DNA of 64,000 bases, taken from assembly GCF_000027125.1 (NCBI RefSeq), contig NC_017626.1. The stretch is one strand, 5' to 3'. The notes under the pieces are model-generated. The model made no database searches. It was not told the DNA's origin and worked only from the letters and a program-made list of their open reading frames with translations. Origin of the DNA: Escherichia coli 042. Its GTDB lineage: Bacteria > Pseudomonadota > Gammaproteobacteria > Enterobacterales > Enterobacteriaceae. The position numbers and the translations under genes are program-made. Position 1 is the stretch's first letter. The number at the start of each line of letters is the position of its first letter. Positions 61,731 to 61,753 of the stretch are shown here, piece after piece.

Positions 61731-61753
61731 ATTAAGGATGTTGTAACTAAAGT
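61731..61753. promoter_or_regulatory. Replication terminus site TerB-like (GTTGTAAC core) in tus promoter
   Basis: attaaggatGTTGTAACTAaagt; 21/23 match to recalled TerB. Confidence 0.65.

What the first reader, a model, noticed from the sequence alone, without database searches (positions are those of the whole stretch)
61731..61753. TerB-like site with two deviations from the recalled consensus
A GTTGTAAC-core Ter site lies in the tus promoter, as expected. Positions 2 and 7 differ from the TerB sequence as I recall it, which may be strain variation or imperfect recollection.
Basis: partly seen in the sequence, partly recalled or inferred. Interest (0 to 1): 0.2.

Follow-up and report, generated by a model that had tools for sequence, protein, structure and literature searches.

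The report
Common natural variant of TerB
This is the ordinary replication-terminator site TerB in front of the tus gene of an E. coli strain, carrying two harmless-looking base differences from the K-12 laboratory strain that about a quarter of sequenced E. coli genomes share.

Summary
Window 61731-61753 (+) reads ATTAAGGATGTTGTAACTAAAGT. It is the only GTTGTAAC core in the window, and its last base lies 10 nt before the tus ATG, in the rstA-rstB-tus/fumC context. It differs from K-12 TerB (AATAAGTATGTTGTAACTAAAGT, read here from NC_000913.3) at positions 2 (A>T) and 7 (T>G).

The allele is common. Among 5426 complete E. coli genomes, exact 30-mer searches assign 1257 to the window allele, including O157:H7 Sakai and APEC O78. 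A further 2345 carry the K-12 allele, 1372 carry A2/G7, and 265 carry ATAAAGT.

Both positions are known variable Ter positions: Goodall et al. 2021 list bp 1-5, 7 and 19-23 as variable and 6, 8-18 as the conserved core. K-12 TerC itself has T2 and G7. Tus-proximal Ter sites in other Escherichia species, Salmonella and Cedecea vary at the same positions, while G6 is invariant. The adjacent Tus is 305/309 identical to the crystallised protein.

The most likely function is unchanged. Tus binds the site, arrests forks that arrive from the low-coordinate side, and represses its own promoter. The finding is already known and of low interest.

The parts
61731..61753 (+). TerB, the 23-bp Tus-binding replication terminator site, T2/G7 allele: ATTAAGGATGTTGTAACTAAAGT
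   Evidence: Searches give 2 mismatches to K-12 TerB with 0 matches expected by chance. Searches show it is orthologous by position to TerB of K-12, O157:H7 Sakai and other strains.
61732..61732 (+). Ter position 2: T here, A in K-12. This lies in the outer variable part of Ter.
   Evidence: K-12 TerC also has T at position 2. PMC8347550 lists bp 1-5 as variable.
61736..61736 (+). Ter position 6: G on the + strand. Its partner C6 on the - strand is the base that docks into Tus in the locked complex.
   Evidence: G6 is present here and in all 8 outgroup loci, although the search pattern did not constrain it. Its role is described in PMC8707476.
61737..61737 (+). Ter position 7: G here, T in K-12. 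This is the known variable position inside the site.
   Evidence: K-12 TerC has G7. PMC8347550 refers to 'the variable position 7'.
61738..61748 (+). Ter positions 8-18 (ATGTTGTAACT), the conserved core contacted by Tus
   Evidence: Identical in the window, K-12 and every strain aligned. The core is defined as positions 6 and 8-18 in PMC8347550.
61723..61731 (+). TGCTATAAA, a putative extended -10 element (TGn + TATAAA) of the tus promoter. Its last base is Ter position 1. This is an inference.
   Evidence: The sequence was read. The TGnTA.A.. motif is conserved at this place in Escherichia, Salmonella and Cedecea. The consensus scan did not report it, because that scan requires T at hexamer position 6. 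The literature says only that TerB lies within the tus promoter.
61703..61708 (+). TGGTCA, a putative -35 hexamer (4 of 6 matches to TTGACA), 17 nt upstream of TATAAA. This is an inference.
   Evidence: Read from the sequence. TGGTCA, TGGTTA or TGGTTG sits at the same place in the Escherichia and Salmonella loci. It has not been mapped experimentally here.
61764..62693 (+). tus, encoding the DNA replication terminus site-binding protein (309 aa)
   Evidence: Pfam PF05472, E = 2.9e-137. 305/309 residues identical to PDB 1ECR/2EWJ/2I06. Annotated as tus in all matched genomes.
60387..61688 (+). rstB, the upstream neighbour that fixes the synteny of the site
   Evidence: ORF. Annotated as rstB in homologous loci.
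62690..63976 (-). fumC, the convergent downstream neighbour. The listed ORF starts at an internal ATG.
   Evidence: ORF. Annotated as fumC in homologous loci.

Best explanation
This is TerB, the Tus-binding replication terminator next to tus, in an E. coli strain other than K-12. It carries a common natural allele with T at position 2 and G at position 7.

Mechanism, from established knowledge of the Tus-Ter system rather than anything shown here: Tus binds the conserved core (G6 and positions 8-18). A fork arriving from the low-coordinate side meets the position-1 end. When its helicase unwinds the G6-C6 pair, C6 on the minus strand docks into the cytosine pocket of Tus, locks the complex and stops the fork. 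Forks arriving from the tus side displace Tus and pass. Because the site overlaps the tus promoter, bound Tus also represses its own transcription.

The two differences from K-12 lie at positions that vary freely among Ter sites. They most likely change neither function appreciably.
For: Identity and position:
- The 23-mer is at the stated coordinates with 2 mismatches to K-12 TerB and no chance expectation.
- It is the only GTTGTAAC in the window.
- The rstA-rstB-Ter-tus/fumC synteny is the same as in K-12 and all matched genomes.
- The ATG begins 11 bp after the last Ter base, as described for TerB in PMC8707476.

Strain variation:
- K-12 has A2/T7.
- Exact 30-mer counts in 5426 complete genomes are window allele 1257, K-12 allele 2345, A2/G7 1372 and ATAAAGT 265.
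- O157:H7 Sakai and APEC O78 carry the window allele.

Tolerance of the changes:
- K-12 TerC is ATATAGGATGTTGTAACTAATAT, with T2 and G7. PMC8707476 describes TerC as the most used, lock-forming site.
- PMC8347550 states that bp 1-5, 7 and 19-23 are variable and have little or no contact with Tus, while 6 and 8-18 form the conserved core.
- Tus-proximal Ter sites of E. albertii, E. whittamii, two unnamed Escherichia species, Salmonella and Cedecea differ at positions 1-5 and 7 but all keep G6.

Partner protein:
- Tus is intact, matches Pfam PF05472 and is 305/309 identical to the crystallised protein.
- The substitutions are I23A, K119Q, A221T and N225D.

Orientation:
- GC skew on the + strand is negative across the window.
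- This fits forks normally crossing the site from the tus side, the permissive direction.
Against: Nothing was found against the identification. Several functional statements remain unshown:
- No binding, fork-arrest or transcription data exist for this exact allele in what I could read. The exact 23-mer occurs in no paper of the searchable library.
- Position 7 is next to the C6 that flips out, and probably near the tus transcription start. A modest quantitative effect on lock kinetics or on tus expression is therefore not excluded.
- The consensus promoter scan found no sigma-70 site here. The -35/-10 assignment is my inference.
Confidence: 0.95

Rival explanations
1. The two deviations are sequencing or assembly errors in the window, or the first reader misremembered the K-12 consensus, and the true sequence equals K-12 TerB.
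For: None was found. Before checking, a low-interest two-base difference could have been either.
Against: K-12 was read directly and has A2/T7, so the recollection was right. The window's exact 30-mer recurs in 1257 independent complete genomes, and the whole 61-bp surrounding stretch is identical in 450.
Confidence: 0.01
2. The T2/G7 allele is functionally different. It measurably changes Tus affinity or lock stability at TerB, or shifts the start point or strength of the tus promoter. That would give lineage-specific Tus levels or TerB efficiency.
For: Position 7 adjoins the C6 lock base. By my inferred -10 element (61726-61731) it also lies about where transcription would start. The three main alleles are each at high frequency. 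The promoter spacer also differs from K-12 at two further bases, giving 4 mismatches in 61 bp.
Against: TerC, a strong lock-forming and heavily used site, has the same T2 and G7. Published comparison classes these positions as variable and barely contacted. Outgroups carry both T and G at position 7. No covariation with the DNA-contact surface of Tus is evident: the four Tus substitutions are outside the residues I recall as forming the C6 pocket (my knowledge).
Confidence: 0.1
3. It is a different Ter site, for example a TerC-like or pseudo-Ter site, or a chance core match, rather than the orthologue of TerB.
For: Positions 2 and 7 match TerC rather than K-12 TerB.
Against: Positions 3-5 and 20-23 match TerB and not TerC. 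The flanks align base for base with the K-12 rstB-tus intergenic region. The gene order is that of TerB. Chance expectation is zero.
Confidence: 0.01

Closest known systems
E. coli K-12 TerB (AATAAGTATGTTGTAACTAAAGT, upstream of tus b1610)
   Same: Same locus (rstB-TerB-tus), strand, spacing to the tus ATG and orientation. 21 of 23 bases are identical, including G6 and the whole 8-23 stretch.
   Different: Position 2 is T instead of A and position 7 is G instead of T. Two further SNPs lie in the promoter spacer upstream, at 61717 and 61720.
TerB of E. coli O157:H7 Sakai and APEC O78, representing phylogroups compared in Goodall et al. 2021 (PMC8347550)
   Same: The 23-mer is identical, as is the 30-mer around it. 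That paper compared ter sites of APEC O78 and of an O157:H7 strain (TW14359) with MG1655 and reported variation confined mostly to bp 1-5, 7 and 19-23.
   Different: Nothing differs within the site. Sakai differs from the window at a few bases further upstream. I could not read the paper's Figure 3 or S3 to confirm that it displays exactly these two changes.
E. coli K-12 TerC (ATATAGGATGTTGTAACTAATAT, yneE-uxaB intergenic)
   Same: T at position 2, G at position 7, G6 and an identical 8-20 stretch. It blocks forks of the same direction as TerB.
   Different: It is at a different locus about 75 kb away in K-12. Positions 3, 4 and 21-23 differ. It is not associated with the tus promoter.

Membership tests
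Ter site (Tus-binding polar replication terminator), specifically TerB | G at position 6, so that C6 on the complementary strand can dock into Tus | tested here: met
   G at 61736. It is invariant in all strains and outgroups examined.
Ter site (Tus-binding polar replication terminator), specifically TerB | Conserved core at positions 8-18 (ATGTTGTAACT in TerA-D) | tested here: met
   61738-61748 is identical to K-12 TerB and TerC. The core definition comes from PMC8347550.
Ter site (Tus-binding polar replication terminator), specifically TerB | Location immediately upstream of tus, with the ATG beginning 11 bp after the site, within the tus promoter region | tested here: met
   The site ends at 61753 and the ATG is at 61764. 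The rstB-tus synteny holds. The spacing is as stated in PMC8707476. The promoter elements themselves are inferred, not mapped.
Ter site (Tus-binding polar replication terminator), specifically TerB | Orientation such that the non-permissive (position 1) face points toward the terminus, so that forks leaving the terminus region are blocked | tested here: met
   Strand and gene order are the same as in K-12. GC skew on the + strand is negative across the window, so the region is normally replicated from the tus side. dif and TerC lie outside the window and were not seen.
Ter site (Tus-binding polar replication terminator), specifically TerB | Binding by Tus and polar arrest of replication forks | not testable with these tools
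   This needs binding or 2D-gel experiments. It is supported only indirectly, by TerC sharing T2/G7 and by an intact Tus.
Tus (PF05472, DNA replication terminus site-binding protein), the partner encoded next to the site | Full-length match to the family profile and to the crystallised protein | tested here: met
   PF05472 at 457 bits over residues 9-306. 305/309 identical to 1ECR/2EWJ over residues 1-309.

The most novel reading that the evidence does not exclude
The T2/G7 TerB allele, together with the two linked promoter-spacer SNPs, might set a different level of tus autoregulation or a different TerB lock efficiency from the K-12 allele. The three high-frequency TerB alleles in E. coli would then be functionally distinct rather than neutral.
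Probability: 0.08. Interest if true: 0.3.

Novelty: already known. Interest (0 to 1): 0.04.

Why it matters
It matters very little. It confirms that the window comes from a non-K-12 E. coli lineage with an intact Tus-TerB module. It also shows that K-12 TerB is not the species-wide sequence, since it accounts for only about 43% of complete genomes. The practical lesson for annotation is to search for Ter sites with the core (G6 plus positions 8-18) rather than with the K-12 23-mer.

Tried and rejected
- **Promoter scan.** The consensus promoter/terminator scan of 61600-61850 found nothing. Its rule needs T at the last -10 position and the candidate hexamer is TATAAA. The promoter assignment therefore rests on conservation and on the literature statements.
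- **Ter annotation in K-12.** The K-12 RefSeq record does not annotate Ter sites as features. My first recalled coordinates for tus and TerC were off. TerC was then located by searching for the core.
- **Literature on this allele.** Literal searches for the window 23-mer and for the TerC 23-mer in papers and in the Goodall supplement found nothing.
- **Primary papers.** Searches for papers on the tus promoter and on position-7 effects returned nothing usable. Natarajan et al. 1991 is not held.
- **Other Ter-like sites.** A relaxed core search of the window gave 17 matches against 13.4 expected by chance. Only TerB was exact, so there are no extra Ter or pseudo-Ter sites.
- **Covariation of Tus and TerB.** One Tus protein accession (WP_001295399.1) occurs with the window TerB allele in WCHEC020031 and HY220605 and with the K-12 allele in G3/10. 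There is thus no sign of coupling. The window's own Tus differs from that accession at 3 residues.

Full report
**What is in the sequence.** Window 61731-61753 on the + strand reads ATTAAGGATGTTGTAACTAAAGT. Searching the window with the K-12 TerB 23-mer and up to three mismatches finds this one place, with two mismatches. None of 100 dinucleotide-preserving shuffles gave any match. It contains the only GTTGTAAC in the 64 kb. It is also the only exact match to the Ter core consensus GNRNGTTGTAACKA; the 16 relaxed matches are at chance level, 17 observed against 13.4 expected.

The site lies in the 75-bp gap between the stop of a 433-aa ORF (60387-61688) and the ATG (61764) of a 309-aa ORF. These ORFs are rstB and tus. 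Homologous loci in eight E. coli genomes are annotated that way. The 309-aa product matches Pfam PF05472 at 457 bits and is 305/309 identical to the crystallised Tus of PDB 1ECR/2EWJ/2I06. Ten bases (GGTTAATATT) separate the last Ter base from the ATG. This matches the published description that TerB lies 11 bp upstream of the tus start codon (PMC8707476). fumC converges on tus from the other side.

**Are the two deviations real?** Yes. I read K-12 directly. NC_000913.3 1684150-1684350 has ...ctataaAATAAGTATGTTGTAACTAAAGTggttaatattATG, and a second MG1655 assembly is the same. The window differs at position 2 (A>T, 61732) and position 7 (T>G, 61737).

**How common is the allele?** I searched 5426 complete E. 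coli genomes with 30-mers made of 5 upstream bases, the 23-mer and GG. With megablast's 28-base word, such a query can only hit an essentially exact copy. The counts were:

| TerB allele | Genomes | Example strains |
|---|---|---|
| T2/G7 (window) | 1257 | O157:H7 strains, APEC O78 |
| A2/T7 (K-12) | 2345 | K-12 |
| A2/G7 | 1372 | 25DN |
| ATAAAGTATG... (one extra A) | 265 | RIVM_C037791 |

These four alleles cover 5239 genomes, and 187 remain unassigned. O157:H7 Sakai has the window's 23-mer. The window allele is thus one of three major alleles, at about 23% of complete genomes. K-12's allele is a plurality at 43%, not the species-wide sequence. The 61-bp stretch around the site is identical to the window in 450 genomes.

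**Do the changes matter for function?** The evidence says probably not.
- **Published comparison.** Goodall et al. 2021 (PMC8347550) compared all ter sites of MG1655, APEC O78, S88, UMN026 and the O157:H7 strain TW14359. [quoted passage not shown] They define the conserved core as positions 6 and 8-18. Two of their strains belong to lineages that carry the window allele. This variation has therefore in all likelihood already been displayed in their Figure 3, which I could not read.
- **TerC shares both bases.** I located K-12 TerC between yneE and uxaB and read it as ATATAGGATGTTGTAACTAATAT. It has T at position 2 and G at position 7, the same two bases as the window's TerB. TerC is described as the most frequently used arrest site and as forming a stable lock (PMC8707476).
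- **Outgroups vary at the same positions.** A pattern scan of one genome per species required only Ter positions 8-23 and the start of tus. It returned eight loci. Their positions 1-7 are listed below.

| Organism | Ter positions 1-7 |
|---|---|
| E. albertii | ATAAAGT |
| E. whittamii | AGCAAGG |
| Escherichia sp. E1V33 | ATAAAGG |
| Escherichia sp. MOD1-EC7003 | AATAAGT |
| Salmonella enterica subsp. arizonae and subsp. diarizonae | AGATAGT |
| Cedecea neteri | AATTAGT |
| Cedecea davisae | CATTAGT |

Positions 1-5 and 7 vary freely. Both T and G occur at position 7 within the genus. G6 was not constrained by the pattern, yet it is invariant.
- **Tus is essentially unchanged.** The window's Tus differs from the crystallised protein only at I23A, K119Q, A221T and N225D. 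None of these is among the residues I recall as forming the C6 pocket (I79, F140, H144, G149) or R198; that list is from my own knowledge. Goodall et al. likewise report that nearly all Tus variation among phylogroups is solvent-exposed.
- **No coupling of Tus and TerB alleles.** One Tus accession (WP_001295399.1) is found with both the window allele and the K-12 allele of TerB.

**Mechanism (shown versus inferred).** Shown here: the site, its conserved G6 and core, its position and spacing relative to tus, an intact Tus gene, and the K-12 strand orientation. GC skew on the + strand is negative over the whole window, with the cumulative skew falling to -0.66. This indicates the region is normally replicated by a fork moving toward lower coordinates, which enters TerB from the tus side.

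Taken from established knowledge (PMC8707476): Tus binds Ter. A fork reaching the position-1 face unwinds the G6-C6 pair, C6 docks into a pocket on Tus, and the locked complex stops DnaB. Forks from the other side pass. TerB belongs to the cluster that stops clockwise forks. Tus bound at TerB also represses tus transcription (citing Roecklein et al. 1991 and 1992).

Inferred by me: the promoter is TGGTCA (61703-61708), a 17-nt spacer, then TG-n-TATAAA (61723-61731), whose last A is Ter position 1. That would place the transcription start near Ter positions 6-9. The motif TGnTA.A.. is conserved at this spot from Escherichia to Cedecea. The simple consensus scan did not call it, and I could not read the primary mapping papers. 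If this placement is right, position 7 lies at or next to the start nucleotide. That is the only reason to keep open a small quantitative effect of the allele.

**Source of the window.** The 4.4 kb around the site is at best 99.3% identical to any complete E. coli genome in the collection, and 95-99% identical to nearly all of them. The source is an E. coli-group strain that is not itself in that collection. Shigella is not covered by it and was not excluded.

**Comparison with what is known, and verdict.** This is TerB by every sequence-level criterion that could be tested. It is a known kind of variation at known variable positions, and it is shared by well-studied strains. It is not novel and would not surprise a specialist. 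The residual novel reading, alleles with different autoregulatory set points or lock kinetics, has a low prior and would be of modest interest even if true.

**Seen in passing.** An element of about 11 kb interrupts tqsA between mdtJ/ydgV and pntB, at roughly 40.4-51.5 kb. It encodes an integrase, a primase/helicase and a major head protein. The first 24 kb of the window are low in G+C.

Noticed in passing
window ~40400-51500: An integrated element of about 11 kb splits tqsA (the AI-2 transporter gene) between mdtJ/ydgV and pntB. It encodes an integrase (50141-51370, -), a primase/helicase of the RepA family (45924-47324, -) and a major head protein (42918-43973, -). In the homologous locus of strain HY220605 it is also annotated with an Icd-like protein, SSB, head decoration protein, head-tail connector and small terminase. 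It resembles a capsid-forming phage satellite (cf-PICI-like) or a small prophage remnant. Only 70 of 5426 genomes cover at least 80% of window 39001-64000, and the element is mosaic, at 77-93% identity to HY220605.
   Followed up: partly
window 1-24000: G+C is 0.45-0.46, against about 0.50 in the rest of the window, and both GC skew and AT skew shift. This is probably prophage or other horizontally acquired DNA, at the position where K-12 has the Qin prophage region. That comparison is from my recollection and was not checked.
   Followed up: no
L007 (E. coli RIVM_C037791) and 264 other genomes; E. albertii L013: A fourth E. coli TerB allele has one extra A (TGCTATAAAATAAAGTATG...). Its 23-mer is ATAAAGTATGTTGTAACTAAAGT, identical to that of E. 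albertii. The insertion moves the putative -10 element one base further from the Ter core, and the upstream promoter spacer is very different (GGCTGTCGATA versus AGTCACCACGA). This could reflect recombination from a divergent lineage.
   Followed up: partly
window 61764-62693 (tus) versus L021: The window's tus differs at 30 of 930 nt (3.2%) and 3 residues from the tus of HY220605, although the 61 bp around TerB are identical to genomes with that Tus accession. The best complete-genome match over 59600-64000 is only 99.3%. This suggests a mosaic history of the locus, or a source lineage that is poorly sampled or not in the E. coli collection, such as Shigella.
   Followed up: partly
Genome-contig scan: The species representatives of E. 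coli, E. fergusonii, E. marmotae and E. ruysiae were not returned. The pattern required Ter positions 8-23, a 5-20 nt gap and ATG-NNN-CGN-TAY-GA. Those genomes must differ somewhere in that stretch or be incompletely held. Some E. coli genomes do carry a SNP just after the site, at the position of 61754-61755: partial 1-28 and 1-29 matches appear.
   Followed up: no
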